Positions 1 through 64,000 of a DNA stretch of 64,000 nt are shown piece after piece. Made by a program: the position numbers and the translations under genes. The notes beneath the pieces are model-generated. The model did no database searches, was not told where the DNA came from, and saw only the letters and a program-made list of their open reading frames with translations. The DNA comes from Eledone cirrhosa. Its lineage: Eukaryota. The first letter of the stretch is position 1. The number at the start of each line of letters is the position of its first letter. The stretch lies in contig OZ024740.1 of NCBI GenBank assembly GCA_964016885.1, positions 430,838,001 through 430,902,000 on the forward strand. Direction: 5' to 3'.

Positions 1-2495
1 TGGAATGGGTGCTTTTTGTTGTGTCACCTACATGATCACTTTACAGTATGGACTGGGTGCTTTTTGTTGTGTCACCTACATGATCACTTTACAGTGTGGA
101 ATGGGTGCTTTTTGTTGTGTCACCTACATGACCACTTTACAGTGTGGACTGGGTGCTTTTTGTTGTGTCACCTACATGATCACTTTACAATGTGGAATGG
201 GTGCTTTTTGTTGTGTCACCTACATGACCACTTTACAGTGTGGAATGGGTGCTTTTTGTTGTGTCACCTACATGACCACTTTACAGTGTGGACTGGGTGC
301 TTTTTGTTGTGTCACCTACATGACCACTTTACAGTGTGGAATGGGTGCTTTTTGTTGTGTCACCTACATGATCACTTTACAGTGTGGTATGGGTGCTTTT
401 TGTTGTGTCACCTACATGACCACTTTACAGTGTGGACTGGGTGCTTTTTGTTGTGTAACCTACATGACAACTTTACAGTGTGAAATGGGTGCTTTTTGTT
501 GTGTCACCTACATGACCACTTTACAGTGTGGAATGGGTGCTTTTTGTTGTGTCACCTACATGACCACTTTACAGTGTAGACTGGGTGCTTTTTGTTGTGT
601 CACCTACATGATCACTTTACAGTGTGGACTGAGTGCTTTTTGTTGTGCCAACTACATGACCACTTTACAGTGTAGACTGGGTGCTTTTTGTTGTGTCACC
701 TACATGACCACCTTACAGTGTGGTCTGGGTGCTTTTTGTTGTGTCACCTACATGACCACTTTACAGTGTGGAATGGGTGCTTTTTGTTGTGTCACCTACA
801 TGATCACTTTACAGTGTGGACTGGGTGCTTTTTGTTGTGTCACCTACATGACCACTTTACAGTGTAGACTGGGTGCTTTTTTTTGTGTCACCTACATGAC
901 CAATTTACAGTGTGGACTGGGTGCTTTTTGTTGTGTCACCTACATGATCACTTTACAGTGTGGACTGGGTGCTTTTTTTTGTGTCAACTACATGACCACT
1001 TAACAGTGTGGTCTGGGCGCTTTTTGTTGTGTCACCTCCATGACCACTTTACAGTGTGGAATGGGTGCTTTTTGTTGTGTCACCTACATGATCACTTTAC
1101 AGTGTGGAATGGGTGCTTTTTGTTGTGTCACCTACATGATCACTTTACAGTATGGACTGGGTGCTTTTTGTTGTGTCACCTACATGACCACTTTACAGTG
1201 TGGACTGGGTGCTTTTTGTTGTGTCACCTACATGATCACTTTACAATGTGGAATGGGAGCTTTTTGTTGAGTCACCTACATGACCACTTTACAGTGTGAA
1301 ATGGGTGCTTTTTGTTGTGTCACCTACATGACCACTTTACAGTGTGAAATGGGTGCTTTTTGTTGTGTCACCTACATGACCACTTTACAGTGTGGAATGG
1401 GTGCTTTTTGTTGTGTCACCTACATGATCACTTTACAGTGTGGAGTGGGTGCTTTTTGTTGTGCCAACTACATGACCACTTTACAGTGTAGACTGGGTGC
1501 TTTTTGTTGTGTCACCTACATGACCACTTTACAGTGTGGACTGGGTACTTTTTGTTGTGTCACCTACATGACCACTTTACAGTGTGGAATAGGTGCTTTT
1601 TGTTGTGTCACCTACATGATCACTTTACAGTGTGGACTGGGTGCTTTTTGTTGTGTCACCTACATGACCACTTTACAGTGTGGACTGGGTGCTTTTTGTT
1701 GTGTCACTTACATGACCACTTTATGTGTGGACTGGGTGCTTTTTGTTGTGTCACCTACATGATCACTTTACAGTGTGGACTGGGTGCTTTTTGTTGTGTC
1801 ACCTACATGACCACTTTACAGTGTCGAATGGGTGCTTTTTGTTGTGTCACCTACATGACCACTTTACAGTGTGGACTGGGTACTTTTTGTTGTGTCACCT
1901 ACATGACCACTTTACAGTGTGAAATGGGTACTTTTTGTTGTGTCACCTACATGATCACTTTACAGTGTGGAATGGGTGCTTTTTGTTGTGTCACCTACAT
2001 GACCACTTTACAGTGTGAAATGGGTGCTTTTTGTTGTGTCACCTACATGATCACTTTACAGTGTGGAATGGGTGCTTTTTGTTGTGTCACCTACATGACC
2101 ACTTTACAGTGTGGACTGGGTGCTTTTTGTTGTGTCACCTACATGACCACTTTACAGTGTGGACTGGGTGCTTTTTGTTGTGTCACCTACATGACCACTT
2201 TACAGTGTGGAATGGGTGCTTTTTGTTGTGTCACCTACATGACCACTTTACAGTGTGGAATGGGTGCTTTTTGTTGTGTCACCTACATGACCACTTTACA
2301 GTGTGTTCTGGGTGTTGTTTGTTGTGTCACCTACATGACCACTTTACTGTGTCGACTGGGTACCTTTTGTTGTGACACCTACATGACCACTTTACAGTGT
2401 GTTCTTGGTACTTTTTGTTGTGACACCTACATGACCACTTTACAGTGTGTTCTGGGTGTTGTTTGTTGTGTCACCTACATGACCACTTTACAGTG
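1..2495. repeat. 48-bp minisatellite, about 52 copies, truncated by the left window edge; consensus TGGACTGGGTGCTTTTTGTTGTGTCACCTACATGACCACTTTACAGTG
   Basis: 48-bp periodicity read directly. Recurrent variants GGAATG/GGACTG/GAAATG and ATGACC/ATGATC. One monomer 2 bp short near 1720. More diverged monomers at 2300-2495. Confidence 0.98.
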
Positions 2496-2546
2496 GACGG
2501 GATTGGGAGCATGGAGTAGAGGATGAGGGGTGGGGTGTATATTTGG

Positions 2547-3287
2547 TTAAGAGGTGCCTACTGACTGTAGGTTTAAGTTTGTATGCAAGGGGAGGTGGGT
2601 CCTCTGTATAACTGCATAGCGCCAAAGATCTTGATCCAGTGACATTGTCTTAGACAGGTGTAAGTAGCGCCAAAGATCTCGATCCAGTGACATTGTCTTA
2701 GACAGGTGTAAGTAGCGCCAAAGATCTTGATCCAGTGACATTGTCTTAGAGAGGTGTAAGTAGCGCCAAAGATCTTGATCCAGTGACATTGTCTTAGAGA
2801 GGTGTAAGTAGCGCCAAAGATCTCGATCCAGTGACATTGTCTTAGACAGGTGTAAGTAGCGCCAAAGATCTTGATCCAGTGACATTGTCTTAGAGAGGTG
2901 TAAGTAGCGCCAAAGATCTCGATCCAGTGACATTGTCTTAGAGAGGTGTAAGTAGCGCCAAAGATCTCGATCCAGTGACATTGTCTTAGAGAGGTGTAAG
3001 TAGCGCCAAAGATCTCGATCCAGTGACATTGCCTTAGAGAGGTGTAAGTAGCGCCAAAGATCTCAATCCAGTGACATTGTCTTAGAGAGGTGTAAGTAGC
3101 GCCAAAGATCTCGATCCAGTGACATTGTCTTAGAGAGGTGTAAGTAGCGCCAAAGATCTCGATCCAGTGACATTGTCTTAGAGAGGTGTAAGTAGCGCCA
3201 AAGATCTTGATCCAGTGACATTGTTTTAGAGAGGTGTAAGTGAGCAAGGTCAGTTTTTATCACTTCGTCCCAGGTTTTTCTTGGTCT
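2547..3287 (-). mobile_element. 5'-truncated RTE-like LINE 3' fragment (ORF C-terminus) with an internal tandem amplification
   Basis: Minus strand from 3287 reads RPRKTWDEVIKTDLAH-(LHLSKTMSLD[R/Q]DLWRY)x13-AVIQRTHLP. This matches the RTE-clade C-terminal pattern GRP(R/K)xxW...D...DRxxWR, recognised by eye without a database search. Confidence 0.8.
2617..3240. repeat. 48-bp minisatellite, exactly 13 copies; unit TAGCGCCAAAGATCTCGATCCAGTGACATTGTCTTAGAGAGGTGTAAG
   Basis: 624 bp = 13 x 48, with near-identical units. The sequence is unrelated to the 48-mer at 1-2495. Confidence 0.98.
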
Positions 3288-3296
3288 ATATACAAG

Positions 3297-3490
3297 GGCG
3301 GTGGATTGGCAGTATCGGTAGACGGTCAGACGCCATGCGTTGCAGCATAGAGTTACGGCCCTTTACGGTCTGAGTTCAAATCCCGCCGAGATTAACTTTG
3401 CCTTTCATCCTTACGGGGTCAATAAAATAAAGTACCAGTAATACACTGGGATAATTGCTCGCCTTGTGCCAAAAGTAGAGACAATTATAG
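3297..3490 (+). mobile_element. tRNA-derived SINE, copy 1, with target-site duplication
   Basis: A-box-like TGGCAGTATCGG (3307-3318), B-box GAGTTCAAATCC (3372-3383) and central core ACTTTGCCTTTCATCCTTACGGGGTCAATAAAATAAAGTACCAG. Flanked by direct repeat ATATACAAGGG (3288-3298 and 3491-3501). A second copy lies at 3716-3902. Confidence 0.88.
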
Positions 3491-3495
3491 ATATA

Positions 3496-3688
3496 CAAGG
3501 GTCAGCAGTTCATAGGCTAACTATGATGGAGTGATGCTCGAGCTCTGAAATCTTGCATGCATTAATCTCAACTCTTCTTATTAATAACTTCATTGTTTCT
3601 TTCTAGGGACTATGTTGAAAAATATACCCCATTCAGTCATTCCATGAGAGTATCTTGGTCAGTCTATGAACTTTTCAGCTGACCCTTG
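3496..3688. mobile_element. Non-autonomous Tc1/mariner-type MITE, about 190 bp
   Basis: Perfect inverted match ATACAAGGGTCAGC (3493-3506) / GCTGACCCTTGTAT (3678-3691), extending inward as AGTTCATAGGCTAAC vs GTCAGTCTATGAACT after a short gap. TA dinucleotide on both sides (3494-3495, 3689-3690). No coding capacity. Confidence 0.75.
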
Positions 3689-3715
3689 TATCATACAGCC
3701 CCATGTTTTGATGTT

Positions 3716-3902
3716 TGGATTGGCAGTATTCGTAGAGGGTCGGACACCATGCTTTGACGCATAGAGTTACGGCCCTTTATGGTCTGAGTTCAAATCCCGC
3801 CGAGGTTAACTTTGCCTTTCATCCTTATGAGGTCGATAAAATAAAGTACCAGTAATACACTGAGATAATTGCTGGCCTTGTGCCAAAAATAGAAACCATT
3901 AT
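3716..3902 (+). mobile_element. tRNA-derived SINE, copy 2 (lacks the first few bases)
   Basis: Colinear with 3302-3488 with scattered substitutions. B-box GAGTTCAAATCC at 3786-3797 and core CTTTGCCTTTCATCCTTATGAGGTCGATAAAATAAAGTACCAG. No clear TSD seen. Confidence 0.87.
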
Positions 3903-3983
3903 TTAAAAAACATTTTTTTTTTAATGAAGAACTATAAATAAATTAAAAAAGTGAAAATTAAAAAGATATAAATAAATTTTGTG

Positions 3984-4299
3984 TGTGAAAAGATGGAGCT
4001 ATCACTTCATCTAAAGAACACTGTGTGTTAGAGAATCGAGCAATGTGAAAAGATGGAGCTATCACTTATGGCATCTAAAGAACACCGTGTGTTAGAGAAT
4101 CGAGCAATGTGAAAAGATAGAGCTATCACTTATGGCATCTAAAGAACACCGTGTGTTAGAGAATCGAGTAATGTGAAAAGATGGAGCTATCACTTATGGC
4201 ATCTAAAGAACACCGTGTGTTAGAGAATCGAGCAATGTGAAAAGATAGAGCTATCACTTATGGCATCTAAAGAACACCGTGTGTTAGAGAATCGAGCAA
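3984..4299. repeat. 64-bp tandem repeat, about 5 copies; unit AATGTGAAAAGATGGAGCTATCACTTATGGCATCTAAAGAACACCGTGTGTTAGAGAATCGAGC
   Basis: Units start at 4042, 4106, 4170 and 4234. The first unit lacks 4 bp (ATGG). Confidence 0.96.
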
Positions 4300-4344
4300 A
4301 TCCATTCCTGTAAATCCAGATTTTTAAAGGTGCAATAGATGCTA

Positions 4345-4445
4345 CACATATATATATATACACATATATGAGCAGACACATATATACTGTATATATTTTC
4401 ACACAAGAATGACTAGCTTTATACATATATACACATATATAATAT
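4345..4445. repeat. Degenerate (TA)n/(CA)n low-complexity tract
   Basis: ACACATATATATATATACACATATAT... and TATACATATATACACATATAT runs. Confidence 0.7.
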
Positions 4446-5085
4446 AATAATAACGAAAATTATTATGTACAGTGCTCAGGAGCACTACAACTCATCAAAG
4501 GTGCATGTAAAGTACATAGAATAATGTACAAATGTCAGGAAAATGACACTCTATGAATCATGATACACACACACACACAAGCATGCATACATAGAGAGGG
4601 GGAATATCAGGTGTAGTGTTGGCGAATTTCGGGAAGAATGAAAGTTTTAAAGGATGCAGTGTCTCGACAGCTAACAACTGATGTAGGTAGTTTGTTCCAT
4701 GGAAGTTTTAAAGGATGCAATGTCTCGACAGCTAACAACTGATGTAGGTAGTTTGTTCCATGGAGGTTTTAAAGGATGCAGTGTCTCGACAGCTAACAAC
4801 TGATGCAGGTAGTTTGTTCCATGCGGCTGGGTGAGGTTATGATACCCTCGGCCTTCTTGACAATTTTAGTGACGTGCTTTGTCCAACACAAATCACTGCT
4901 GACAGTAATGACAAGGTCACCTTCACAAGATTTCTTGAGATTGGTGTTGTGGAGGGAGTATGTGAAAACTAGGTTTTTCCTCCCAAAACGCATGGTGATA
5001 CACTGGTCCACAGACAGCTTGAGTTGCCAGTCTGTGATCCATTGATGCATTGTGTCCAGGTCTGATTGCAAGAGGGATACACAGC
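4442..5085 (-). mobile_element. 5'-truncated, internally deleted CR1-like (CR1/L2/Jockey group) LINE 3' end
   Basis: Minus strand LQSDLDTMHQWITDWQLKLSVDQCITMRFGRKN...EGDLVITVSSDLCWTKHVTKIVKKA matches the post-YADD CR1 pattern (LQxDLDxLxxWxxxWxxxFNxxKC...KDLGVxxxxxLxWxxH). It then jumps to the terminal motif WNKLPASVVSCRDTASFKTFILPEIRQHYT* (stop 4607-4609), followed by a 3' UTR with (TG)n, a hairpin at 4471-4486 and a TTA-rich tail. Confidence 0.88.
4642..4823. repeat. 61-bp tandem triplication inside the CR1-like fragment
   Basis: Units start at 4642, 4703 and 4764 (AAGTTTTAAAGGATGCAGTGTCTCGACAGCTAACAACTGATGTAGGTAGTTTGTTCCATGG). The minus strand encodes WNKLP[A/T]SVVSCRD[T/I]ASFK. Confidence 0.95.
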
Positions 5086-5525
5086 TATGTTAGCCATTTT
5101 CATAGCACCAATTTGACATTGAAAAGTTAACATTGAAATCTTATTTCAATGTTAGTCATTAAGTTCTAAAAACAATATAAATTCTCACTGCAACTTTTAA
5201 TAACTGGTTTTATCAGTCACTAATGACCCAGAACAACTTTCTACATGGAATAAGATGTGAATTTAATCGTTTGATGACCATACTGAATGTGAATTAATTC
5301 AATTTATTAGAGAATATATAACTTAGCTCTAAACTAGTTTTGTGAGACTCTATTATAGTTTATGGCAGCGTTTCCCGAACAGTTTTAGAGAATATATTTC
5401 AGCAGCAGCAGCACACCCTCCCCATCCCGTCTGTAATGTTGGTTTAAAATGATGCATTGTAAATTAAATACTATTAAATTTTCTTTTCCATTTAAGAATA
5501 TATTGTTTAAGCAAGACTAGAAAAC

Positions 5526-5830
5526 ATGCAAGAAGTGTAGACTTGTTTTGTAGACCTTGAAAAGAGATGTGACTGCATTCCACATGACCTTTTGTGGGAT
5601 GTTCTACAGGAGTATGGGATTGATGGACAGTTTCTTGTTGCCTTGATGTCTCTATATGAATGTTTGGATAAGTCAAAACCATTCAATGTAGGTATCAGAC
5701 ACCACCAAGAGTGCATACGGTTACATCTTATAAACAGGATTGACATGCACAGTCAGGTTGGAAGTAGTATTGAGACTGGCAGGTGTAAAATTAGTCAGTT
5801 GGAATCTGCAGATGATATATGTTACTTAAC
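5526..5830 (+). pseudogene. Decayed reverse transcriptase fragment of an RTE-clade non-LTR retrotransposon (motifs A to C)
   Basis: Frame from 5541: TCFVDLEKRCDCIPHDLLWDVLQEYGIDGQFLVALMSLYECLDKSKPFNVGIRHHQECIRLHLINRIDMHSQVGSSIETGRCKISQLESADDI. This follows the RTE RT order CFVDLEKAxDxxPxxxLWxxLxxYG...SLY...SxxFxVxxGxRQGC...IxxLxFADDxVLL. There is a stop at 5538, the QGC motif is eroded, and there are apparent short deletions. Confidence 0.85.
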
Positions 5831-8800
5831 TCAGCAGATGATATAATGTTACTTACCCTTGCAGATGATATAGTGTTACTTAACTTAGCAGTTGATATAG
5901 TGTTACTTAACTTAGCAGATGATATAGTGTTACTTAACTTAGCAGATGATATAGTGTTACTTAACTTAGCAGATGATATAATGTTACTTAACTTAGCAGA
6001 TGATATAATGTTACTTAACTTAGCAGATGATATAATGTTACTTAACTTAGCAGATGATATAATGTTACTTAACTTAGCAGATGATATAATGTTACTTAAC
6101 TTAGCAGATGATATAATATTACTTAACTTAGCAGATGATATAATGTTACTTAAATTAGCAGATGATATAGTGTTACTTAACTTAGCAGATGATATAGTGT
6201 TACTTAACTTAGCAGATAATATGGTGTTACTTAACTCAGCAGATGATATAATGTTACTTAACTTAGCAGATGATATAGTGTTACTTAACTTAGCAGATGA
6301 TATAGTGTTACTTAACTTAGCAGATGATATAGTGTTACTTAACTTAGCAGATGATATAGTGTTACTTAACTTAGCAGATGATATAATGTTACTTAACTTA
6401 GCAGATAATATGGTGTTACTTAACTCAGCAGATGATATAATGTTACTTAACTTAGCATATGATATAGTGTTAGTTAACTTAGCAGATGATATAGTGTTAC
6501 TTAACTTAGCAGATGATATAATGTTACTTAACTTAGCAGATGATATAATGTTACATAACTTAGCAGATGATATAATGTTACTTAACTTAGCAGATGATAT
6601 AGTGTTACTTAACTTAGCAGATGATATAGTGTTACTTAACTTAGCAGATGATATAGTGTTACTTAACTTAGCAGATGATATAATGTTACTTAACTTAGCA
6701 GATGATATAGTGTTACTTAACTTAGCAGATGATATAGTGTTACTTAAGTGAGCAGATGATATAATGTTACTTAACTTAGCAGATGATATAGTGTTACTTA
6801 ACTTAGCAGATGATATAGTGTTACTTAACTTAGCAGATGATATAGTGTTACTTAACTTAGCAGATGATATAGTGTTACTTAACTGAGCAGATGATATAAT
6901 GTTACTTAACTGAGCAGATGATATAGTGTTACTTAACTTAGCAGATGATATAGTGTTACTTAACTTAGCAGATGAGATAGTGTTACTTAACTGAGCAGAT
7001 GATATAATGTTACTTAACTTAGCAGAAGATATAGTGTTACTTAACTTAGCAGATGATATAGTGTTACTTAACTTAGCAGATAATATAGTGTTACTTAACT
7101 TAGCAGATGATATAATGTTACTTAACTTAGCAGATGATATAGTGTTACTTAACTTAGCAGATGATATAGTGTTACTTAACTTAGCAGATGATATAGTGTT
7201 ACTTAACTGAGCAGATGATATAATGTTACTTAACTTAGCAGAAGATATAGTGTTACTTAACTTAGCAGATGATATAGTGTTACTTAACTTAGCAGATGAT
7301 ATAGTGTTACTTAACTGAGCAGATGATATAATGTTACTTAACTTAGCAGAGGATATAATGTTACTTAACTTAGCAGATGATATAGTGTTACTTAACTTAG
7401 CAGATGATATAGTGTTACTTAACTGAGCAGATGATATAATGTTACTTAACTTAGCAGAAGATATAGTGTTACTTAACTTAGCAGATGATATAGTGTTACT
7501 TAACTTAGCAGATGATATAGTGTTACTTAACTTAGCAGAAGATATAATGTTACTTAACTTAGCAGATGATATAGTGTTACTTAACTTAGCAGATGATATA
7601 CTGTTACTTAACTGAGCAGATGATATAGTGTTACTTAACTGAGCAGATGATATAATGTTACTTAACTGAGCAGATGATATAGTGTTACTTAACTGAGCAG
7701 ATGATATAATGTTACTTAACTGAGCAGATGATATAGTGTTACTTAGCTTAGCAGATGATATACTGTTACTTAACTTAGCAGATGATATAATGTTACTTAA
7801 CTGAGCAGATGATATAGTGTTACTTAACTTAGCAGATGATATAGAGTTACTTAACTGAGCAGATGATATAATGTTACTTAACTTAGCAGATGATATAGTG
7901 TTACTTAACTAAGCAGAAGATACAATGTTACTTAACTTAGCAGATGATATAGTGTTACTTAACTTAGCAGATGATATAGTGTTACTTAACTTAGAAGATG
8001 ATATAGTGTTACTTAAGTCAGCAGAAGATATGGTGTTACTTAACTTAGCAGATGATATAGTGTTACTTAACTGAGCAGATGATATAATGTTACTTAACTT
8101 AGCAGATGATATAGTGTTACTTAACTTAGCAGATGATATAGTGTTACTTAACTGAGCAGATGTTATAGTGTTACTTAACTTAGCAGATGATATAGTGTTA
8201 CTTAACTGAGGAGATGATATAGTGTTACTTAACTGAGCAGATGATATAGTGTTACTTAACTTAGCAGATGATATAGTGTTACTTAACTTAGCAGATGATA
8301 TAGTGTTACTTAACTTAGCAGATGATATAATGTTACTTAACTTAGCAGAAGATATAGTGTTACTTAACTTAGCAGATGATATAGTGTTACTTAACTTAGC
8401 AGATAATATAGTGTTACTTAACTTAGCAGATAATATAGTGTTACTTAACTTAGCAGATGATATAATGTTACTTAACTTAGCAGATGATATAGTGTTACTT
8501 AACTTAGCAGATGATATAGTGTTACTTAACTTAGCAGATGATATAATGTTACTTAACTGAGCAGATCATATAATGTTACTTAACTTAGCAAATGATATAG
8601 TGTTACTTAACTTAGCAGATGATATAGTGTTACTTAACTGAGCAGATGTTATAGTGTTACTTAACTTAGCAGATGATATAGTGTTACTTAACTGAGGAGA
8701 TGATATAATGTTACTTAACTTAGCAGATGATATAGTGTTACTTAACTTAGCAGATGATATAGTGTTACTTAACTTAGCAGATGATATAGTGTTACTTAAC

Positions 8801-11800
8801 TGAGCAGATGATATAATGTTACTTAACTTAGCAGAAGATATAGTGTTACTTAACTTAGCAGATGATATAGTGTTACTTAACTTAGCAGAGGATATAGTGT
8901 TACTTAACTTAGCAGAAGATATAATGTTACTTAACTTAGCAGATGATATAGTGTTACTTAACTTAGCAGATGATATACTGTTACTTAACTGAGCAGATGA
9001 TATAGTGTTACTTAACTGAGCAGATGATATAATGTTACTTAACTGAGCAGATGATATAGTGTTACTTAACTGAGCAGATGATATAATGTTACTTAACTGA
9101 CAGATGATATAGTGTTACTTAGCTTAGCAGATGATATACTGTTACTTAACTTAGCAGATGATATAATGTTACTTAACTGAGCAGATGATATAGTGTTACT
9201 TAACTTAGCAGATGATATAGAGTTACTTAACTGAGCAGATGATATAATGTTACTTAACTTAGCAGATGATATAGTGTTACTTAACTAAGCAGAAGATATA
9301 ATGTTACTTAACTTAGCAGATGATATAGTGTTACTTAACTTAGCAGATGATATAGTGTTACTTAACTTAGAAGCTGATATAGTGTTACTTAAGTCAGCAG
9401 AAGATATGGTGTTACTTAACTTAGCAGATGATATAGTGTTACTTAACTGAGCAGATGATATAATGTTACTTAACTTAGCAGATGATATAGTGTTACTTAA
9501 CTTAGCAGATGATATAGTGTTACTTAACTGAGCAGATGTTATAGTGTTACTTAACTTAGCAGATGATATAGTGTTACTTAACTGAGGAGATGATATAGTG
9601 TTACTTAACTGAGCAGATGATATAGTGTTACTTAACTTAGCAGATGATATAGTGTTACTTAACTTAGCAGATGATATAGTGTTACTTAACTTAGCAGATG
9701 ATATAATGTTACTTAACTTAGCAGAAGATATAGTGTTACTTAACTTAGCAGATGATATAGTGTTACTTAACTTAGCAGATAATATAGTGTTACTTAACTT
9801 AGCAGATGATATAATGTTACTTAACTTAGCAGATGATATAGTGTTACTTAACTTAGCAGATGATATAGTGTTACTTAACTTAGCAGATGATATAATGTTA
9901 CTTAACTGAGCAGATCATATAATGTTACTTAACTTAGCAGATGATATAGTGTTACTTAACTTAGCAGATGATATAGTGTTACTTAACTGAGCAGATGTTA
10001 TAGTGTTACTTAACTTAGCAGATGATATAGTGTTACTTAACTGAGCAGATGATATAATGTTACTTAACTTAGCAGAAGATATAGTGTTACTTAACTTAGC
10101 AGATGATATAGTGTTACTTAACTTAGCAGATGATATAGTGTTACTTAACTGAGCAGATGATATAATGTTACTTAACTTAGCAGAGGATATAGTGTTACTT
10201 AACTTAGCAGAAGATATAATGTTACTTAACTTAGCAGATGATATAGTGTTACTTAACTTAGCAGATGATATACTGTTACTTAACTGAGCAGATGATATAG
10301 TGTTACTTAACTGAGCAGATGATATAATGTTACTTAACTGAGCAGATGATATAGTGTTACTTAACTGAGCAGATGATATAATGTTACTTAACTGAGCAGA
10401 TGATATAGTGTTACTTAACTTAGCAGATGATATAGAGTTACTTAACTGAGCAGATGATATAATGTTACTTAACTTAGCAGATGATATAGTGTTACTTAAC
10501 TAAGCAGAATATATAATGTTACTTAACTTAGCAGATGATATAGTGTTACTTAACTTAGCAGATGATATAGTGTTACTTAACTTAGAAGATGATATAGTGT
10601 TACTTAAGTCAGCAGAAGATATGGTGTTACTTAACTTAGCAGATGATATAGTGTTACTTAACTGAGCAGATGATATAATGTTACTTAACTTAGCAGATGA
10701 TATAGTGTTACTTAACTTAGCAGATGGTATAGTGTTACTTAACTGAGCAGATGTTATAGTGTTACTTAACTTAGCAAATGATATAGTGTTACTTAACTGA
10801 GGAGATGATATAGTGTTACTTAAAGTAGCAGATGATATAGTGTTACTTAACTTAGCAGATGATACAGTGTTACTTAAACTTAGCAGATGATATAGTGTTA
10901 CTTAACTGAGCAGATGATATAATGTTACTTAACTTAGCAGATAATATGGTGTTACTTAACTCAGCAGATGATATAATGTTACTTAACTTAGCAGATGATA
11001 TAGTGTTACTTAACTTAGCAGATGATATAGTGTTACTTAACTTAGCAGATGATATAATGTTACTTAACTTAGCAGATGATATAATGTTACTTAACTTAGC
11101 AGATGATATAATGTTACTTAACTTAGCAGATGATATAGTGTTACTTAACTTAGCAGATGATATAGTGTTACTTAACTTAGCAGATGATATAGTGTTACTT
11201 AACTTAGCAGATGATATAATGTTACTTAACTTAGCAGATGATATAGTGTTACTTAACTGAGCAGATGATATAATGTTACTTAACTGAGCAGATGATATAG
11301 TGTTACATAACTTAGCAGATGATATAGTGTTACTTAACTTAGCAGATAATATAGTGTTACTTAACTTAGCAGATGATATAATGTTACTTAACTTAGCAGA
11401 TGATATAGTGTTACTTAACTTAGCAGATGATATAGTGTTACTTAACTTAGCAGATGATATAGTGTTACTTAACTGAGCAGATAATATAATGTTACTTAAC
11501 TTAGCAGAAGATATAGTGTTACTTAACTTAGCAGATGATATAGTGTTACTTAACTTAGCAGATGATATAGTGTTACTTAACTGAGCAGATGATATAATGT
11601 TACTTAACTTAGCAGAGGATATAGTGTTACTTAACTTAGCAGAAGATATAATGTTACTTAACTTAGCAGATGATATAGTGTTACTTAACTTAGCAGATGA
11701 TATACTGTTACTTAACTGAGCAGATGATATAGTGTTACTTAACTGAGCAGATGATATAATGTTACTTATCTGAGCATATGATATGGTGTTACTTAACTTA

Positions 11801-14800
11801 GCAGATGATATAATGTTACTTAACTGAGCAGATGATATAGTGTTACTTAACTTAGCAGATGATATAGAGTTACTTAACTGAGCAGATGATATAATGTTAC
11901 TTAACTTAGCAGATGATATAGTGTTACTTAACTAAGCAGAAGATATAATGTTACTTAACTTAGCAGATGATATAGTGTTACTTAACTTAGCAGATGATAT
12001 AGTGTTACTTAACTTAGAAGATGATATAGTGTTACTTAAGTCAGCAGAAGATATGGTGTTACTTAACTTAGCAGATGATATAGTGTTACTTAACTGACCA
12101 GATGATATAATGTTACTTAACTTAGCAGATGATATAGTGTTACTTAACTTAGCAGATGATATACTGTTACTTAACTGAGCAGATGATATAGTGTTACTTA
12201 ACTGAGCAGATGATATAATGTTACTTAACTGAGCAGATGATATAGTGTTACTTAACTGAGCAGATGATATAATGTTACTTAACTGAGCAGATGATATAGT
12301 GTTACTTAGCTTAGCAGATGATATACTGTTACTTAACTTAGCAGATGATATAATGTTACTTAACTGAGCAGATGATATAATGTTACTTAACTGAGCAGAT
12401 GATATAGTGTTACTTAACTGAGCAGATGATATAGTGTTACTTAACTTAGAAGATGATATAGTGTTACTTAAGTCAGCAGAAGATATGGTGTTACTTAACT
12501 TAGCAGATGATATAGTGTTACTTAACTGACCAGATGATATAATGTTACTTAACTTAGCAGATGATATAGTGTTACTTAACTTAGCAGATGATATACTGTT
12601 ACTTAACTGAGCAGATGATATAGTGTTACTTAACTGAGCAGATGATATAATGTTACTTAACTGAGCAGATGATATAGTGTTACTTAACTGAGCAGATGAT
12701 ATAATGTTACTTAACTGAGCAGATGATATAGTGTTACTTAGCTTAGCAGATGATATACTGTTACTTAACTTAGCAGATGATATAATGTTACTTAACTGAG
12801 CAGATGATATAGTGTTACTTAACTTAGCAGATGATATAGAGTTACTTAACTGAGCAGATGATATAATGTTACTTAACTTAGCAGATGATATAGTGTTACT
12901 TAACTAAGCAGAATATATAATGTTACTTAACTTAGCAGATGATATAGTGTTACTTAACTTAGCAGATGATATAGTGTTACTTAACTTAGAAGATGATATA
13001 GTGTTACTTAAGTCAGCAGAAGATATGGTGTTACTTAACTTAGCAGATGATATAGTGTTACTTAACTGAGCAGATGATATAATGTTACTTAACTTAGCAG
13101 ATGATATAGTGTTACTTAACTTAGCAGATGGTATAGTGTTACTTAACTGAGCAGATGTTATAGTGTTACTTAACTTAGCAAATGATATAGTGTTACTTAA
13201 CTGAGGAGATGATATAGTGTTACTTAAAGTAGCAGATGATATAGTGTTACTTAACTTAGCAGATGATACAGTGTTACTTAAACTTAGCAGATGATATAGT
13301 GTTACTTAACTGAGCAGATGATATAATGTTACTTAACTTAGCAGATAATATGGTGTTACTTAACTCAGCAGATGATATAATGTTACTTAACTTAGCAGAT
13401 GATATAGTGTTACTTAACTTAGCAGATGATATAGTGTTACTTAACTTAGCAGATGATATAATGTTACTTAACTTAGCAGATGATATAATGTTACTTAACT
13501 TAGCAGATGATATAATGTTACTTAACTTAGCAGATGATATAGTGTTACTTAACTTAGCAGATGATATAGTGTTACTTAACTTAGCAGATGATATAGTGTT
13601 ACTTAACTTAGCAGATGATATAATGTTACTTAACTTAGCAGATGATATAGTGTTACTTAACTTAGCAGATGATATAGTGTTACTTAACTGAGCAGATGAT
13701 ATAATGTTACTTAACTTAGCAGATGATATAGTGTTACTTAACTTAGCAGATGATATAGTGTTACTTAACTTAGCAGATGATATATTGTTACTTAACTTAG
13801 CAGATGATATAGTGTTACTTAACTGAGCAGATGATATAATGTTACTTAACTGAGCAGATGATATAGTGTTACATAACTTAGCAGATGATATAGTGTTACT
13901 TAACTTAGCAGATAATATAGTGTTACTTAACTTAGCAGATGATATAATGTTACTTAACTTAGCAGATGATATAGTGTTACTTAACTTAGCAGATGATATA
14001 GTGTTACTTAACTTAGCAGATGATATAGTGTTACTTAACTGAGCAGATAATATAATGTTACTTAACTTAGCAGAAGATATAGTGTTACTTAACTTAGCAG
14101 ATGATATAGTGTTACTTAACTTAGCAGATGATATAGTGTTACTTAACTGAGCAGATGATATAATGTTACTTAACTTAGCAGAGGATATAGTGTTACTTAA
14201 CTTAGCAGAAGATATAATGTTACTTAACTTAGCAGATGATATAGTGTTACTTAACTTAGCAGATGATATACTGTTACTTAACTGAGCAGATGATATAGTG
14301 TTACTTAACTGAGCAGATGATATAATGTTACTTATCTGAGCATATGATATGGTGTTACTTAACTTAGCAGATGATATAATGTTACTTAACTGAGCAGATG
14401 ATATAGTGTTACTTAACTTAGCAGATGATATAGAGTTACTTAACTGAGCAGATGATATAATGTTACTTAACTTAGCAGATGATATAGTGTTACTTAACTA
14501 AGCAGAAGATATAATGTTACTTAACTTAGCAGATGATATAGTGTTACTTAACTTAGCAGATGATATAGTGTTACTTAACTTAGAAGATGATATAGTGTTA
14601 CTTAAGTCAGCAGAAGATATGGTGTTACTTAACTTAGCAGATGATATAGTGTTACTTAACTGACCAGATGATATAATGTTACTTAACTTAGCAGATGATA
14701 TAGTGTTACTTAACTTAGCAGATGATATAGTGTTACTTAACTGAGCAGATGTTATAGTGTTACTTAACTTAGCAGATGATATAGTGTTACTTAACTGAGG

Positions 14801-17800
14801 AGATGATATAGTGTTACTTAACTGAGCAGATGTTATAGTGTTACTTAACTTAGCAGATGATATAGTGTTACTTAACTTAGCAGATGATATAGTGTTACTT
14901 AAATTAGCAGATGATATATGTTACTTAACTCAGCAGATGATATATTGTTACTTAACTTAGCAGATGATATAGTGTTACTTAACTTAGCAGATGATATAGT
15001 GTTACTTAACTGAGGACATGATATAGTGTTACTTAAAATAGCAGATGATATAGTGTTACTTAACTTAGCAGATGATACAGTGTTACTTAAACTTAGCAGA
15101 TGATATAGTGTTACTTAACTGAGCAGATGATATAATGTTACTTAACTTAGCAGATAATATGGTGTTACTTAACTCAGCAAATGATATAATGTTACTTAAC
15201 TTAGCAGATGATATAGTGTTACTTAACTTAGCAGATGATATAGTGTTACTTAACTTAGCAGATGATATAATGTTACTTAACTTAGCAGATGATATAATGT
15301 TACTTAACTTAGCAGATGATATAATGTTACTTAACTTAGCAGATGATATAGTGTTACTTAACTTAGCAGATGATATAGTGTTACTTAACTTAGCAGATGA
15401 TATAGTGTTACTTAACTTAGCAGATGATATAATGTTACTTAAATTAGCAGATGATATAGTGTTACTTAACTTAGCAGATGATATAGTGTTACTTAACTGA
15501 GCAGATGATATAATGTTACTTAACTTAGCAGATGATATAGTGTTACTTAACTTAGCAGATGATATAGTGTTACTTAACTTAGCAGATGATATATTGTTAC
15601 TTAACTTAGCAGATGATATAGTGTTACTTAACTGAGCAGATGATATAGTGTTACTTAACTGAGCAGATGATATAGTGTTACTTAACTTAGCAGATGATAT
15701 AGTGTTACTTAACTTAGCAGATGATATAGTGTTACTTAACTTAGCAGATGATATAATGTTACTTAACTTAGCAGAAGATATAGTGTTACTTAACTTAGCA
15801 GATGATATAGTGTTACTTAACTTAGCAGATAATATAGTGTTACTTAACTTAGCAGATAATATAGTGTTACTTAACTTAGCAGATGATATAATGTTACTTA
15901 ACTTAGCAGATGATATAGTGTTACTTAACTTAGCAGATGATATAGTGTTACTTAACTTAGCAGATGATATAATGTTACTTAACTGAGCAGATCATATAAT
16001 GTTACTTAACTTAGCAGATGATATAGTGTTACTTAACTGAGGAGATGATATAGTGTTACTTAACTGAGCAGATGATATAGTGTTACTTAACTTAGCAGAT
16101 GATATAGTGTTACTTAACTTAGCAGATGATATAGTGTTACTTAACTGAGCAGATGTTATAGTGTTACTTAACTTAGCAGATGATATAGTGTTACTTAACT
16201 GAGGAGATGATATAGTGTTACTTAACTGAGCAGATGATATAGTGTTACTTAACTTAGCAGATGATATAGTGTTACTTAACTTAGCAGATGATATAGTGTT
16301 ACTTAACTGAGCAGATGATATAATGTTACTTAACTTAGCAGAAGATATAGTGTTACTTAACTTAGCAGATGATATAGTGTTACTTAACTTAGCAGATGAT
16401 ATAGTGTTACTTAACTGAGCAGATGATATAATGTTACTTAACTTAGCAGAGGATATAGTGTTACTTAACTTAGCAGAAGATATAATGTTACTTAACTTAG
16501 CAGATGATATAGTGTTACTTAACTTAGCAGATGATATACTGTTACTTAACTGAGCAGATGATATAGTGTTACTTAACTGAGCAGATGATATAATGTTACT
16601 TAACTGAGCAGATGATATAGTGTTACTTAACTGAGCAGATGATATAATGTTACTTAACTGAGCAGATGATATAGTGTTACTTAGCTTAGCAGATGATATA
16701 CTGTTACTTAACTTAGCAGATGATATAATGTTACTTAACTGAGCAGTTGATATAGTGTTACTTAACTTAGCAGATGATATAGAGTTACTTAACTGAGCAG
16801 ATGATATAATGTTACTTAACTTAGCAGATGATATAGTGTTACTTAACTAAGCAGAATATATAATGTTACTTAACTTAGCAGATGATATAGTGTTACTTAA
16901 CTTAGCAGATGATATAGTGTTACTTAACTTAGAAGATGATATAGTGTTACTTAAGTCAGCAGAAGATATGGTGTTACTTAACTTAGCAGATGATATAGTG
17001 TTACTTAACTGAGCAGATGATATAATGTTACTTAACTTAGCAGATGATATAGTGTTACTTAACTTAGCAGATGATATAGTGTTACTTAACTGAGCAGATG
17101 TTATAGTGTTACTTAACTTAGCAAATGATATAGTGTTACTTAACTTAGCAGATGATATAGTGTTACTTAACTGAGCAGATGATATAATGTTACTTAACTT
17201 AGCAGATGATATAGTGTTACTTAACTTAGCAGATGATATAGTGTTACTTAACTTAGCAGATGATATAGTGTTACTTAACTTAGCAGATGATACAGTGTTA
17301 CTTAAACTTAGCAGATGATATAGTGTTACTTAACTGAGCAGATGATATAATGTTACTTAACTTAGCAGATAATATGGTGTTACTTAACTCAGCAGATGAT
17401 ATAATGTTACTTAACTTAGCAGATGAGATAGTGTTACTTAACTTAGCAGATGATATAGTGTTACTTAATTTAGCAGATGATATAATGTTACTTAACTTAG
17501 CAGATGATATAATGTTACTTAACTTAGCAGATGATATAGTGTTACTTAACTTAGCAGATGATATAGTGTTACTTAACTTAGCAGATGATATAGTGTTACT
17601 TAACTTAGCAGATGATATAATGTTACTTAACTTAGCAGATGATATAGTGTTACTTAACTTAGCAGATGATATAGTGTTACTTAACTGAGCAGATGATATA
17701 ATGTTACTTAACTTAGCAGATGATATAGTGTTACTTAACTTAGCAGATGATATAGTGTTACTTAACTGAGCAGATGATATAATGTTACTTAACTGAGCAG

Positions 17801-20800
17801 ATGATATAGTGTTACATAACTTAGCAGATGATATAGTGTTACTTAACTTAGCAGATAATATAGTGTTACTTAACTTAGCAGATGATATAATGTTACTTAA
17901 GTTAGCAGATGATATAGTGTTACTTAACTTAGCAGATGATATAGTGTTACTTAACTTAGCAGATGATATAGTGTTACTTAACTGAGCAGATGATATAATG
18001 TTACTTAACTTAGCAGAAGATATAGTGTTACTTAACTTAGCAGATGATATAGTGTTACTTAACTTAGCAGATGATATAGTGTTACTTAACTGAGCAGATG
18101 ATATAATGTTACTTAACTTAGCAGAGGATATAGTGTTACTTAACTTAGCAGAAGATATAATGTTACTTAACTTAGCAGATGATATAGTCTTACTTAACTT
18201 AGCAGATGATATACTGTTACTTAACTGAGCAGATGATATAGTGTTACTTAACTGAGCAGATGATATAATGTTACTTATCTGAGCAGATGATATAGTGTTA
18301 CTTAACTGAGCAGATGATATAATGTTACTTAACTGAGCAGATGATATAGTGTTACTTAGCTTAGCAGATGATATAATGTTACTTAACTTAGCAGATGATA
18401 TAATGTTACTTAACTGAGCAGATGATATAGTGTTACTTAACTTAGCAGATGATATAGAGTTACTTAACTGAGCAGATGATATAATGTTACTTAACTTAGC
18501 AGATGATATAGTGTTACTTAACTTAGCAGATGATATAGTGTTACTTAACTTAGCAGATGATATAGTGTTACTTAACTGAGCAGATGTTATAGTGTTACTT
18601 AACTTAGCAGATGATATAGTGTTACTTAACTGAGGAGATGATATAGTGTTACTTAACTGAGCAGATGTTATAGTGTTACTTAACTTAGCAGATGATATAG
18701 TGTTACTTAATTAGCAGATGATATAGTGTTACTTAAATTAGCAGATGATATATGTTACTTAACTCAGCAGATGATATATTGTTACTTAACTTAGCAGATG
18801 ATATAGTGTTACTTAACTTAGCAGATGATATAGTGTTACTTAACTGAGGAGATGATATAGTGTTACTTAAAATAGCAGATGATATAGTGTTACTTAACTT
18901 AGCAGATGATACAGTGTTACTTAAACTTAGCAGATGATATAGTGTTACTTAACTGAGCAGATGATATAATGTTACTTAACTTAGCAGATAATATGGTGTT
19001 ACTTAACTCAGCAAATGATATAATGTTACTTAACTTAGCAGATGATATAGTGTTACTTAACTTAGCAGATGATATAGTGTTACTTAACTTAGCAGATGAT
19101 ATAATGTTACTTAACTTAGCAGATGATATAATGTTACTTAACTTAGCAGATGATATAATGTTACTTAACTTAGCAGATGATATAGTGTTACTTAACTTAG
19201 CAGATGATATAGTGTTACTTAACTTAGCAGATGATATAGTGTTACTTAACTTAGCAGATGATATAATGTTACTTAACTTAGCAGATGATATAGTGTTACT
19301 TAACTTAGCAGATGATATAGTGTTACTTAACTGAGCAGATGATATAATGTTACTTAACTTAGCAGATGATATAGTGTTACTTAACTTAGCAGATGATATA
19401 GTGTTACTTAACTTAGCAGATGATATATTGTTACTTAACTTAGCAGATGATATAGTGTTACTTAACTGAGCAGATGATATAATGTTACTTAACTGAGCAG
19501 ATGATATAGTGTTACTTAACTTAGCAGATGATATAGTGTTACTTAACTTAGCAGATGATATAGTGTTACTTAACTGAGCAGATGATATAATGTTACTTAA
19601 CTTAGCAGAAGATATAGTGTTACTTAACTTAGCAGATGATATAGTGTTACTTAACTTAGCAGATAATATAGTGTTACTTAACTTAGCAGATGATATAATG
19701 TTACTTAACTTAGCAGATGATATAGTGTTACTTAACTTAGCAGATGATATAGTGTTACTTAACTTAGCAGATGATATAGTGTTACTTAACTGAGCAGATG
19801 ATATAATGTTACTTAACTTAGCAGAAGATATAGTGTTACTTAACTTAGCAGATGATATAGTGTTACTTAACTTAGCAGATGATATAGTGTTACTTAACTG
19901 AGCAGATGATATAATGTTACTTAACTTAGCAGAGGATATAGTGTTACTTAACTTAGCAGAAGATATAATGTTACTTAACTTAGCAGATGATATAGTGTTA
20001 CTTAACTTAGCAGATGATATACTGTTACTTAACTGAGCAGATGATATAGTGTTACTTAACTGAGCAGATGATATAATGTTACTTAACAGAGCAGATGATA
20101 TAGTGTTACTTAACTGAGCAGATGATATAATGTTACTTAACTGAGCAGATGATATAGTGTTACTTAGCTTAGCAGATGATATACTGTTACTTAACTTAGC
20201 AGATGATATAATGTTACTTAACTGAGCAGATGATATAGTGTTACTTAACTTAGCAGATGATATAGAGTTACTTAACTGAGCAGATGATATAATGTTACTT
20301 TACTTAGCAGATGATATAGTGTTACTTAACTTAGCAGATGATATAGTGTTACTTAACTTAGAAGATGATATAGTATTACTTAACTCAGCAGAAGATATGG
20401 TGTTACTTAACTTAGCAGATGATATAGTGTTACTTAACTGAGCAGATGATATAATCTTACTTAACTTAGCAGATGATATAGTGTTACTTAACTTAGCAGA
20501 TGATATAGTGTTACTTAACTTAGAAGATGATATAGTATTACTTAACTCAGCAGAAGATATGGTGTTACTTAACTTAGCAGATGATACAGTGTTACTTAAA
20601 CTTAGCAGATGATATAGTGTTACTTAACTGAGCAGATGATATAATGTTACTTAACTTAGCAGATAATATGGTGTTACTTAACTCAGCAAATGATATAATG
20701 TTACTTAACTTAGCAGATGATATAGTGTTACTTAACTTAGCAGATGATATAGTGTTACTTAACTTAGCAGATGATATAATGTTACTTAACTTAGCAGATG

Positions 20801-62800: not shown

Positions 62801-64000
62801 ACATAACTGAGCAGATGATATAGTGTTACTTAACTTAGCAGAAGATATAATGTTACTTAACTTAGCAGATGATATAGTGTTACTTAACTTAGCAGATGAT
62901 ATACTGTTACTTAACTTAGCAGATGATATAATGTTACTTAACTTAGCAGATGATATAGTGTTACTTAACTTAGCAGATGATATAGTGTTACTTAAATTAG
63001 CAGATGATATATGTTACTTAACTCAGCAGATGATATATTGTTACTTAACTTAGCAGATGATATAGTGTTACTTAACTTAGCAGATGATATTGTGTTACTT
63101 AACTGAGCAGATGTTATAGTGTTACTTAACTTAGCAAATGATATAGTGTTACTTAACTGAGGAGATGATATAGTGTTACTTAATATAGCAGATTATATAG
63201 TGTTACTTAAATTAGCAGATGATACAGTGTTACTTAAACTTAGCAGATGATATAGTGTTACTTAACTGAGCAGATGATATAATGTTACTTAACTTAGCAG
63301 ATAATATGGTGTTACTTAACTCAGCAGATGATATAATGTTACTTAACTTAGCAGATGATATAGTGTTACTTAACTTAGCAGATGATATAGTGTTACTTAA
63401 CTTAGCCGATGATATAATGTTACTTAACTTAGCAGATGATATAATGTTACTTAACTTAGCAGATGATATAGTGTTACTTAACTTAGCAGATGATATAGTG
63501 TTACTTAACTTAGCAGATGATATAGTGTTACTTAACTTAGCAGATGATATAATGTTACTTAACTTAGCAGATGATATAATGTTACTTAACTTAGCAGATG
63601 ATATAGTGTTACTTAACTTAGCAAATGATATAGTGTTACTTAACTTAGCAGATGATATAGTGTTACTTAACTGAGCAGATGATATAACGTTACTTAACTT
63701 AGCAGAAGATATAGTGTTACTTAACTTAGCAGATGATATAGTGTTACTTAACTTAGCAGATGATATAGTGTTACTTAACTGAGCAGATGATACAATGTTA
63801 CTTAACTTAGCAGATGATATAGTGTTACTTAACTTAGCAGATTATATAGTGTTACTTAACTGAGCAGATGTTATAGTGTTACTTAACTTAGCAGATGATA
63901 TAGTGTTACTTAACTGAGGAGATGATATAGTGTTACATAACTAAGCAGATGATATAGTGTTACTTAACTTAGCAGAAGATATAATGTTACTTAACTTAGC
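5808..64000. repeat. 27-bp satellite array, over 58 kb and about 2,150 monomers; consensus GCAGATGATATA(G/A)TGTTACTTAACT(T/G)A
   Basis: 27-bp periodicity with no interruption seen up to the window end. Two common dimorphic sites (GTG/ATG and TTA/TGA) plus rarer diagnostic variants and occasional 26- and 28-bp monomers. Confidence 0.99.

What the first reader, a model, noticed from the sequence alone, without database searches (positions are those of the whole stretch)
1..5830. Hotspot where successive TE remnants have each seeded their own tandem array
Within 6 kb there are five unrelated tandem arrays (48, 48, 64, 61 and 27 bp; about 52+, 13, 5, 3 and 2,150+ copies). Three are visibly internal pieces of LINE ORFs: the RTE C-terminus, the CR1 C-terminus and the RTE RT motif C. 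The series resembles a snapshot of satellite birth at different stages. It suggests a locus- or lineage-specific mechanism that tandemly amplifies 27-64 bp segments, such as microhomology-mediated slippage or rolling-circle reinsertion. The mechanism is inference.
Basis: partly seen in the sequence, partly recalled or inferred. Interest (0 to 1): 0.7.

Follow-up and report, generated by a model that had tools for sequence, protein, structure and literature searches.

The report
Sequence-blind DNA stuttering patch in octopus
In what is likely an octopus genome, five unrelated 27-64-base stretches that begin within 6 kb are each repeated head to tail; one is a reverse-transcriptase remnant, one is the end of a host tubulin-enzyme exon and two are likely other retrotransposon pieces, so the region likely copies whatever DNA lies there rather than transposons in particular.

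Summary
The five arrays are real and mutually unrelated. The 27-bp array starts exactly at the ADD motif of a decayed LINE reverse transcriptase.

The title fails for the 64-bp array. It is not a transposon piece but the last 51 nt of a TTLL9 tubulin-glutamylase exon plus 13 nt of intron (29 of 30 residues match Octopus TTLL9). The 61-bp array's flank is weakly LINE-like. The RTE label of the second array rests on recall only, and the first array is unassigned. Transposons cover about 54% of the O. vulgaris genome, so 3-4 of 5 is no enrichment.

Junction overlaps of 1, 0 and 3 nt match chance (P=0.22). The 58-kb array grew by nested block duplications. Divergence does not follow size, so this is not a clean age series.

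Best reading: in-place, sequence-blind tandem duplication, then unequal exchange. It works like the 'exon stuttering' reported in birds, but in AT-rich DNA and on an apparently dead exon. Whether density exceeds the genome background could not be tested.

The parts
1..2495 (.). Array 1: 48-bp unit, 52+ copies, runs off the window start; source unassigned (recalled resemblance to an octopus RTE 3' untranslated region, untested)
   Evidence: 29 distinct unit types among 52; last 4 units average 4.5 mismatches to consensus against 1.6 for the other 47 full-length units
2496..2616 (-). Unique spacer: end of the reading frame that runs through array 2, plus a G-rich tract (2499-2554 on +) with quadruplex-like runs
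   Evidence: G4Hunter-type peak 1.76, reached by 7 of 500 dinucleotide shuffles
2617..3241 (-). Array 2: 48-bp unit (16 codons), 13 copies, junction overlap 1 nt; inside a frame recalled as an RTE-type ORF2 C-terminus
   Evidence: homology not confirmed
3242..3290 (-). Upstream flank of the same frame (RPRKTW motif), ending at the SINE-like and MITE-like insertions
3302..3488 (.). SINE-like dispersed repeat, copy 1, flanked by an 11-nt direct repeat at 3288 and 3491 (likely target-site duplication)
   Evidence: no tRNA gene or Rfam family found; SINE label recalled
3493..3691 (.). 200-bp element with perfect 14-nt terminal inverted repeats (MITE-like); not tandemly amplified
3716..3902 (.). 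SINE-like repeat, copy 2, 90% identical to copy 1; not tandemly amplified
3984..4299 (-). Array 3: 64-bp unit = last 51 nt of the TTLL9 exon + first 13 nt of the following intron; 5 copies, junction overlap 0 nt; distal copy has a 4-nt deletion
4249..4341 (-). 93-nt exon-like piece of a TTLL9 tubulin polyglutamylase gene, AG before it; Tyr replaced by Cys and no GT donor, so likely non-functional; boundaries inferred from homology
   Evidence: Pfam TTL E=1.8e-5; O. vulgaris TTLL9 E=4.4e-11
4610..5089 (-). Decayed LINE ORF2 remnant, RT end then a short C-terminal piece (CR1/L2 group by recall), with a frameshift and a likely internal deletion next to array 4
4638..4823 (-). Array 4: 61-bp unit, 3 copies, junction overlap 3 nt, 4 private substitutions
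5520..5833 (+). Decayed LINE reverse-transcriptase remnant (one stop, deletions) running in register into the first unit of array 5
5808..64000 (+). Array 5: 27-bp unit reading ADDIVLLNL (RT motif C region), 2155 units, all one orientation, nested block duplications, runs off the window end; not coding (508 of 2088 full-length units carry a stop)

Best explanation
Five unrelated short stretches in this region are repeated head to tail, at least two of them in register with the sequence they came from (a LINE reverse-transcriptase remnant and a TTLL9 exon-intron border), which likely results from a sequence-blind local process: a first 27-64-bp duplication, likely made by repair of staggered breaks or by template slippage, followed by likely unequal exchange and gene conversion. 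SHOWN: arrays, unrelated units, in-register flanks for arrays 3 and 5, junction overlaps of 0-3 nt, nested block duplications in array 5, more diverged edge units in array 1. INFERRED: the seeding chemistry (I favour fill-in and end-joining at breaks with overhangs, which needs little microhomology), the expansion route, the loss of exon function before amplification, and a locally raised rate.
For: Host-exon origin of array 3. RT flank colinear up to the first unit of array 5 in 7 of 7 named proteins tested. TE share matches the genome share. Overlaps at chance level. In mouse cells, small duplications at 43-50-nt overhangs arise mostly by CST-dependent end-joining, and the TMEJ class shows microhomology much more often (PMC8355091, abstract and passages). 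Step-wise growth: array 3 alternates two variants over its last four copies. Array 5 has a 5509-bp tandem block (198 of 204 units, 5503 of 5509 nt identical) and 1546 of 2155 units lie in an exactly repeated run of 10 or more units, against a longest run of 6 in each of 5 shuffles. The 26-nt edge unit recurs 15 more times inside the array. Three small arrays cover 34% of the 3312 bp between the large ones, against 7.45% simple and 3.12% satellite repeats in O. vulgaris. No clear two-copy duplication stood out in the four spacers, whereas most unexplained human TE-derived repeats have two units (PMC3389668, passage).
Against: No genome background could be computed, and the window was picked because it looked odd, so the density argument is post hoc. 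Only three arrays have both edges in the window. The sources of arrays 1 and 2 are not tool-confirmed, and array 4 only weakly. Two SINE-like copies and a MITE-like element in the same stretch were not amplified. No direct evidence separates end-joining from slippage. The species and chromosome position are unknown.
Confidence: 0.6

Rival explanations
1. No hotspot: the arrays arose in place but at the ordinary rate of a tandem-rich octopus genome, or as the usual fringe of a large satellite block, and the cluster is a selected extreme.
For: About 10.6% of O. vulgaris is simple or satellite repeat. TE-derived tandem repeats are common: 23% of human mini/satellites (PMC3389668 abstract). Different satellite families tend to share chromosome regions (PMC10702118, passage). 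The window was chosen for its oddity.
Against: Three independent arrays lie in 3.3 kb of old, unique DNA (34% cover), with no clear doublets and one exon-derived unit.
Confidence: 0.27
2. One reading: transposon remnants specifically seed arrays, through microhomology or LINE machinery.
For: Array 5 certainly, array 4 probably and array 2 by recall lie in LINE ORFs. TE-derived satellites are well documented (PMC9659126 passages; PMC7004042 abstract).
Against: Array 3 is a host exon-intron border. The TE share is at chance. Overlaps of 1, 0 and 3 nt miss the 5-10-bp flanking repeats of the Haber-Louis model as described in PMC3389668. The SINE-like and MITE-like copies were not amplified.
Confidence: 0.06
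3. Rolling-circle copying of small circles, with reinsertion, made each array in one burst.
For: Sharp array edges and no clear two-copy intermediates.
Against: Arrays 3 and 5 sit in register with their source flanks. Variants are shared in alternating and nested blocks up to 5.5 kb. Double-stranded circles of 27-64 bp are hard to close (general knowledge). Rolling-circle input into later growth of array 5 is not excluded.
Confidence: 0.05
4. Assembly or library artefact.
For: The 5509-bp block is 99.9% identical to its neighbour and could be a falsely duplicated haplotype.
Against: Variants are mostly substitutions shared among many units (180 unit types; 2088 of 2155 units are full length), with ordered sub-families and more diverged edge units. 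Read errors do not do this.
Confidence: 0.02

Closest known systems
Sequence stuttering / exon stuttering on avian dot chromosomes (Hron et al. 2026, PMC12954441; abstract, passages and second half of the Discussion read)
   Same: Local tandem expansion of originally unique sequence, with several unrelated clusters side by side. The edge of an exon plus adjacent intron is copied into the intron. Array 3 (51 exon nt, 4 extra copies, 316 bp) lies inside their ranges (20-187 bp, 1-44 copies with median 4, span 112-23,555 bp).
   Different: Reported for GC-rich genes of birds and gerbils; here an invertebrate at 30-45% GC. In birds the coding exon stays intact; here every copy lacks a GT donor and carries Tyr to Cys. 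One array exceeds 58 kb. Length polymorphism is untested.
TE-derived tandem repeats and satellites (review PMC9659126, passages; SINE-derived sSats of squamates PMC10702118, first fifth and passages; human TE-derived repeats PMC3389668; Ogre-derived satellites PMC7004042, abstract)
   Same: The unit is an internal TE segment, the terminal unit continues into the parent element, and copy numbers run from a few to over a thousand. LINE ORF2-derived cases are listed (chicken HinfI from CR1, PROsat from L1).
   Different: Several unrelated sources are packed into 6 kb, one of them a host exon. The large array's unit is the RT catalytic-motif region itself. Multi-locus spread and chromosomal position are unknown.
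Subtelomeric VNTR clusters (PMC7608644, abstract only)
   Same: Regional enrichment of repeats with units over 15 bp.
   Different: The human enrichment (21-fold) concerns repeats over 60% GC; these are 30-46% GC. No doubled TTAGGG motif occurs in the window.
Small tandem duplications from break fill-in and end-joining (PMC8355091, abstract and passages)
   Same: Duplication size of tens of bases; little microhomology needed.
   Different: Shown for single duplications in mouse cells; it does not explain growth beyond two copies and has not been tested in molluscs here.

Membership tests
Sequence stuttering (Hron 2026) | Dense local tandem repeats of unrelated, originally unique sequence | tested here: met
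   62% of 1-5807; 0 of 10 unit pairs related
Sequence stuttering (Hron 2026) | Exon edge plus adjacent intron copied tandemly into the intron | tested here: met
   Array 3 = 51 exon + 13 intron nt; exon border inferred from protein homology
Sequence stuttering (Hron 2026) | Repeats confined to introns of a gene whose coding exons stay intact | tested here: not met
   Tyr (7 of 7 Octopus sequences covering the site) is Cys, and 0 of 5 copies have GT at the expected donor; no other TTLL9 exon in the window. Hence 'works like', not 'member'.
Sequence stuttering (Hron 2026) | Extensive length variation between individuals | not testable with these tools
   No reads or second assembly available
Sequence stuttering (Hron 2026) | Association with GC-rich sequence (reported correlate) | tested here: not met
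   GC 0.30-0.45 in arrays; one G4-like tract only
TE-derived tandem repeat | Unit homologous to a TE segment: array 5 | tested here: met
   Unit reads ADDIVLLNL where named LINE RTs have ADDVVLLAS or close
TE-derived tandem repeat | Unit homologous to a TE segment: arrays 2 and 4 | tested here: inconclusive
   Array 4 flank p=0.003 in 1 of 15 proteins, unit 0 of 15; array 2 best p=0.07 in 4 proteins, 0 of 90 candidates
TE-derived tandem repeat | Unit homologous to a TE segment: array 3 | tested here: not met
   TTLL9 exon
TE-derived tandem repeat | Unit homologous to a TE segment: array 1 | not testable with these tools
   Non-coding; no eukaryotic repeat library; octopus transcriptome FASTA in the PMC9115989 supplement is held empty
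TE-derived tandem repeat | Terminal unit continues into the parent element | tested here: met
   Array 5 left edge; its right edge is outside the window
Satellite DNA proper (array 5) | Long homogenised head-to-tail array with higher-order structure | tested here: met
   58 kb or more, 3.9% from consensus, block duplications
Satellite DNA proper (array 5) | Heterochromatic, centromeric or subtelomeric location; multi-locus family | not testable with these tools
   Position and genome unknown
Haber-Louis minisatellite origin | 5-10-bp direct repeats flanking the unit | tested here: not met
   1, 0 and 3 nt in the 3 of 5 arrays with both edges in the window

The most novel reading that the evidence does not exclude
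Octopus genomes contain 'stuttering' domains, as avian dot chromosomes do, in which any short stretch (LINE ORF, exon edge, untranslated DNA) is tandemly amplified in place, up to full satellites of tens of kilobases, and this happens in AT-rich DNA. Stuttering would then be a position effect independent of GC richness. If this block is a duplicate of part of the TTLL9 locus, the parent locus keeps the single-unit ancestral state of several arrays, giving a direct before-and-after record of satellite birth.
Probability: 0.3. Interest if true: 0.75.

Novelty: new variant of a known kind. Interest (0 to 1): 0.5.

Why it matters
How the first tandem copies of a minisatellite or satellite arise is still open: the postulated mechanisms explained only 6% of human TE-derived cases (PMC3389668 abstract). 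This locus offers several independent births with identifiable single-copy sources. The exon-derived array acts as an internal control showing that transposon identity is not required. It would extend a phenomenon so far described for GC-rich bird and gerbil genes to an AT-rich invertebrate. No function is implied: the arrays are non-coding and most likely neutral.

Tried and rejected
Array 2 as RTE. Pfam found nothing; the homologue search gave 0 of 90 candidates; 4 fish RT proteins gave p of 0.07 or more; a motif search in papers found 0. The one GTDB hit is a chance match in a bacterial contig, inflated by the repeated query, and was discarded.

Array 4 flank. Pfam gave one sub-threshold hit, and PDB, plasmids and GTDB gave nothing useful. 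RT remnant: Pfam direct 0 families, word-index search none, PDB only R2 at E=0.54.

Array 5 as a coding repeat was rejected: 508 of 2088 units carry stops. Three of five periods being multiples of 3 is chance (P=0.21). Hairpin-prone units were rejected: z from -0.33 to +1.39 in 10 of 10 folds. No tRNA gene or real Rfam family. No telomeric repeat.

G-quadruplex trigger: one tract beats 493 of 500 shuffles, but the test is post hoc and is kept as a lead. Age series: not monotonic; the numbers are small (4 substitutions in array 4).

Octopus repeat consensus sequences could not be seen. The PMC9115989 transcriptome file is held empty, four further files were not searched and two are too large; the PMC13282606 library is on Zenodo. 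These bear on arrays 1, 2 and 4. No eukaryotic genome collection was available, and metagenome and viral contigs stayed unchecked.
Full report
OBSERVATION. The first and last run off the window. None of the 10 unit pairs is more similar than shuffles (lowest p=0.08). The arrays are biological rather than read error: array 5 has 180 unit types in 2155 units, mostly substitutions shared by many units and arranged in ordered blocks.

SOURCE ORGANISM. A 30-residue piece matches TTLL9 of Octopus vulgaris, O. sinensis and O. bimaculoides at 29 positions, so the window is inferred to come from Octopus or a close relative. The species is not known.

ARRAY 5. The frame at 5541-5843 falls among RVT_1 clusters in the Atlas (27 of 30 hits, score 0.95) and has 240 relatives at E up to 0.001 among 1.84 billion proteins. 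Seven of seven named fish proteins tested, all with RVT_1, align from 5520 to 5828-5837 at 35-38% identity, E 3e-12 to 1e-16, and the alignments end on their FADDVVLL-type motif exactly where the array starts. The commonest unit translates as ADDIVLLNL. The clade name RTE is my recall. This is a satellite-scale array born from the catalytic-motif region of a dead LINE. It is not coding, since 508 of 2088 full-length units contain a stop.

ARRAY 3, THE CORRECTION. On the minus strand, 4223-4357 hits Pfam TTL above its cut-off (E=1.8e-5), TTLL6 structures weakly (E=0.02) and O. vulgaris TTLL9 at E=4.4e-11 (1 of 2 candidates). Homology spans a 93-nt exon-like piece, 4341 to 4249, preceded by AG (borders inferred). 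The unit is the last 51 exon bases plus 13 intron bases. All five copies have C where a donor G is expected, and all encode Cys where 7 of 7 Octopus sequences have Tyr. No other TTLL9 exon is in the window. I infer that the exon was already disabled before it was amplified, as a duplicated gene fragment or a pseudo-exon. The bases after the exon resemble a minor-spliceosome donor (consensus recalled), and human TTLL9 is listed as carrying a U12/U2 twintron (PMC3564746, Table 1; position not given). That is a lead only.

ARRAYS 4, 2 AND 1. The 98-aa frame upstream of array 4 aligns over 77 residues with the RT end of 1 of 15 named LINE-bearing proteins (p=0.003; E=5e-4) and scores 0.94 with eukaryotic Atlas clusters, one named RT family. 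The unit's own peptide matched none of the 15. The CR1 label and an internal deletion beside the array are recalled. Array 2 collapses to one open 57-residue frame that I recognise as an RTE-type ORF2 end, but every tool test was negative or spurious. Array 1 begins about 55 bp past the end of that frame and may be the same element's untranslated tail (recall, untested). If so, arrays 1 and 2 share one element.

IS TE ORIGIN SPECIAL? TEs average 53.83 kb per 100 kb in O. vulgaris (PMC13282606, parts 1-2 of 3 read), and RTE-BovB is expanded in octopuses (PMC8967140, passages). Three or four of five seeds in TEs has P=0.57 or 0.24. With one seed in a host exon, and two SINE-like copies and a MITE-like element unamplified, the simplest reading is that seeding ignores what the sequence is.

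MECHANISM, SEEDING. Junction overlaps are 1, 0 and 3 nt for arrays 2, 3 and 4. Random breakpoints in the local DNA give a sum of 4 or more in 22% of draws. The 5-10-bp flanking repeats of the Haber-Louis model (as described in PMC3389668) are absent. Units do not fold better than shuffles. Fill-in and end-joining at breaks with overhangs of 43-50 nt makes duplications with less microhomology than TMEJ in mouse cells (PMC8355091). I favour it over slippage, but three junctions cannot decide.

MECHANISM, GROWTH. Array 3 alternates two variants over its last four copies, as a doubled dimer would. Array 1 has more diverged edge units (4.5 against 1.6 mismatches). Array 5 contains a 5509-bp tandem block (198 of 204 units identical) and further blocks of 0.7-3.4 kb at lags up to 19 kb; its longest exact run is 74 units against 6 in shuffles, and 1546 of 2155 units lie in exactly repeated runs of at least 10 units. 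This is the pattern expected from unequal exchange and conversion (general knowledge), not from one rolling-circle burst. The 5509-bp block alone could be an assembly duplicate.

STAGES? Pairwise divergence is 4.4, 1.8, 2.8, 6.3 and 6.5% for 3, 5, 13, 52+ and 2150+ copies. The smallest array looks stalled rather than newborn, though on only 4 substitutions. Distances to consensus of 1.2-3.9% would be roughly 3-11 million years at the rate used in PMC13282606. This is a crude figure that ignores homogenisation, but all arrays look far younger than their decayed LINE hosts.

HOTSPOT? Three small arrays cover 34% of the 3312 bp between the two large ones; O. vulgaris has 7.45% simple and 3.12% satellite repeats. 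No clear two-copy duplication was seen in 2185 bp of spacer: two spacers stayed within their shuffles, one exceeded them through AT microsatellite, and one only slightly (13 against 10). This suggests local excess, but the window was selected and no background could be run.

COMPARISON. TE-derived tandem repeats are known in many animals and plants, so that part is ordinary. The closest match to the whole pattern is sequence and exon stuttering on chicken dot chromosomes (PMC12954441): array 3 fits its size, copy-number and exon-border ranges. It fails two points, an intact source exon and GC richness, and polymorphism is untested. The locus therefore works like stuttering but is not filed as a member. 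My searches listed no paper on such clusters in cephalopods; none used the word stuttering, and subscription journals are largely missing. The O. vulgaris genome paper has 0 occurrences of tandem, satellite, telomer or centromer (PMC10700109), and PMC9068888 mentions only the squid AT microsatellite and gene arrays (passages).

VERDICT. In-place origin is well supported for two arrays, TE specificity is contradicted, and the hotspot is plausible but unproven. New variant of a known kind; interest 0.5.

Noticed in passing
window 4236-4248 (- strand) and the four other copies in array 3: The 13 intron bases after the TTLL9 exon resemble a U12-type donor (consensus recalled) with C at +1; human TTLL9 is a listed U12/U2 twintron gene. 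May indicate a minor intron at this position in octopus.
   Followed up: partly
window 3288-3691: Nested insertions: a SINE-like copy flanked by an 11-nt direct repeat appears to have landed in the left terminal repeat of a 200-bp MITE-like element, which itself cuts off the RTE-like frame.
   Followed up: partly
window 2499-2554, 2575-2600, 4598-4622, 5403-5440: Four G- or C-rich tracts with G4Hunter-type scores of 1.2 or more; three lie within about 40 bp of an array edge, and all five arrays have positive GC skew on + (0.11-0.26).
   Followed up: partly
window 37800-53000: A sub-domain of array 5 with its own unit variants, many 26-nt units and shorter repeated blocks; only 16-36% of units in 37.8-49.8 kb lie in long exact repeats against over 70% in most other parts.
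   Followed up: partly
window 5808-5833: The first unit of array 5 carries a 1-nt deletion and recurs identically 15 times inside the array as far as 63000, so the edge unit exchanges with the interior.
   Followed up: partly
window 15068-26085: A 5509-bp tandem duplication with 6 differences: very recent unequal exchange or an assembly duplicate.
   Followed up: no
window 4430-4610 (- strand): After the stop of the LINE-like frame come about 170 bases ending in short ATT-type repeats, consistent with a CR1/L2-type 3' tail inserted upstream of the TTLL9 exon (label recalled).
   Followed up: no
proteins P0012, P0035, P0038 (named fish gene models): These public gene models are chimeras of LINE RT domains with calmodulin, Tc1 transposase or a second LINE.
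   Followed up: no
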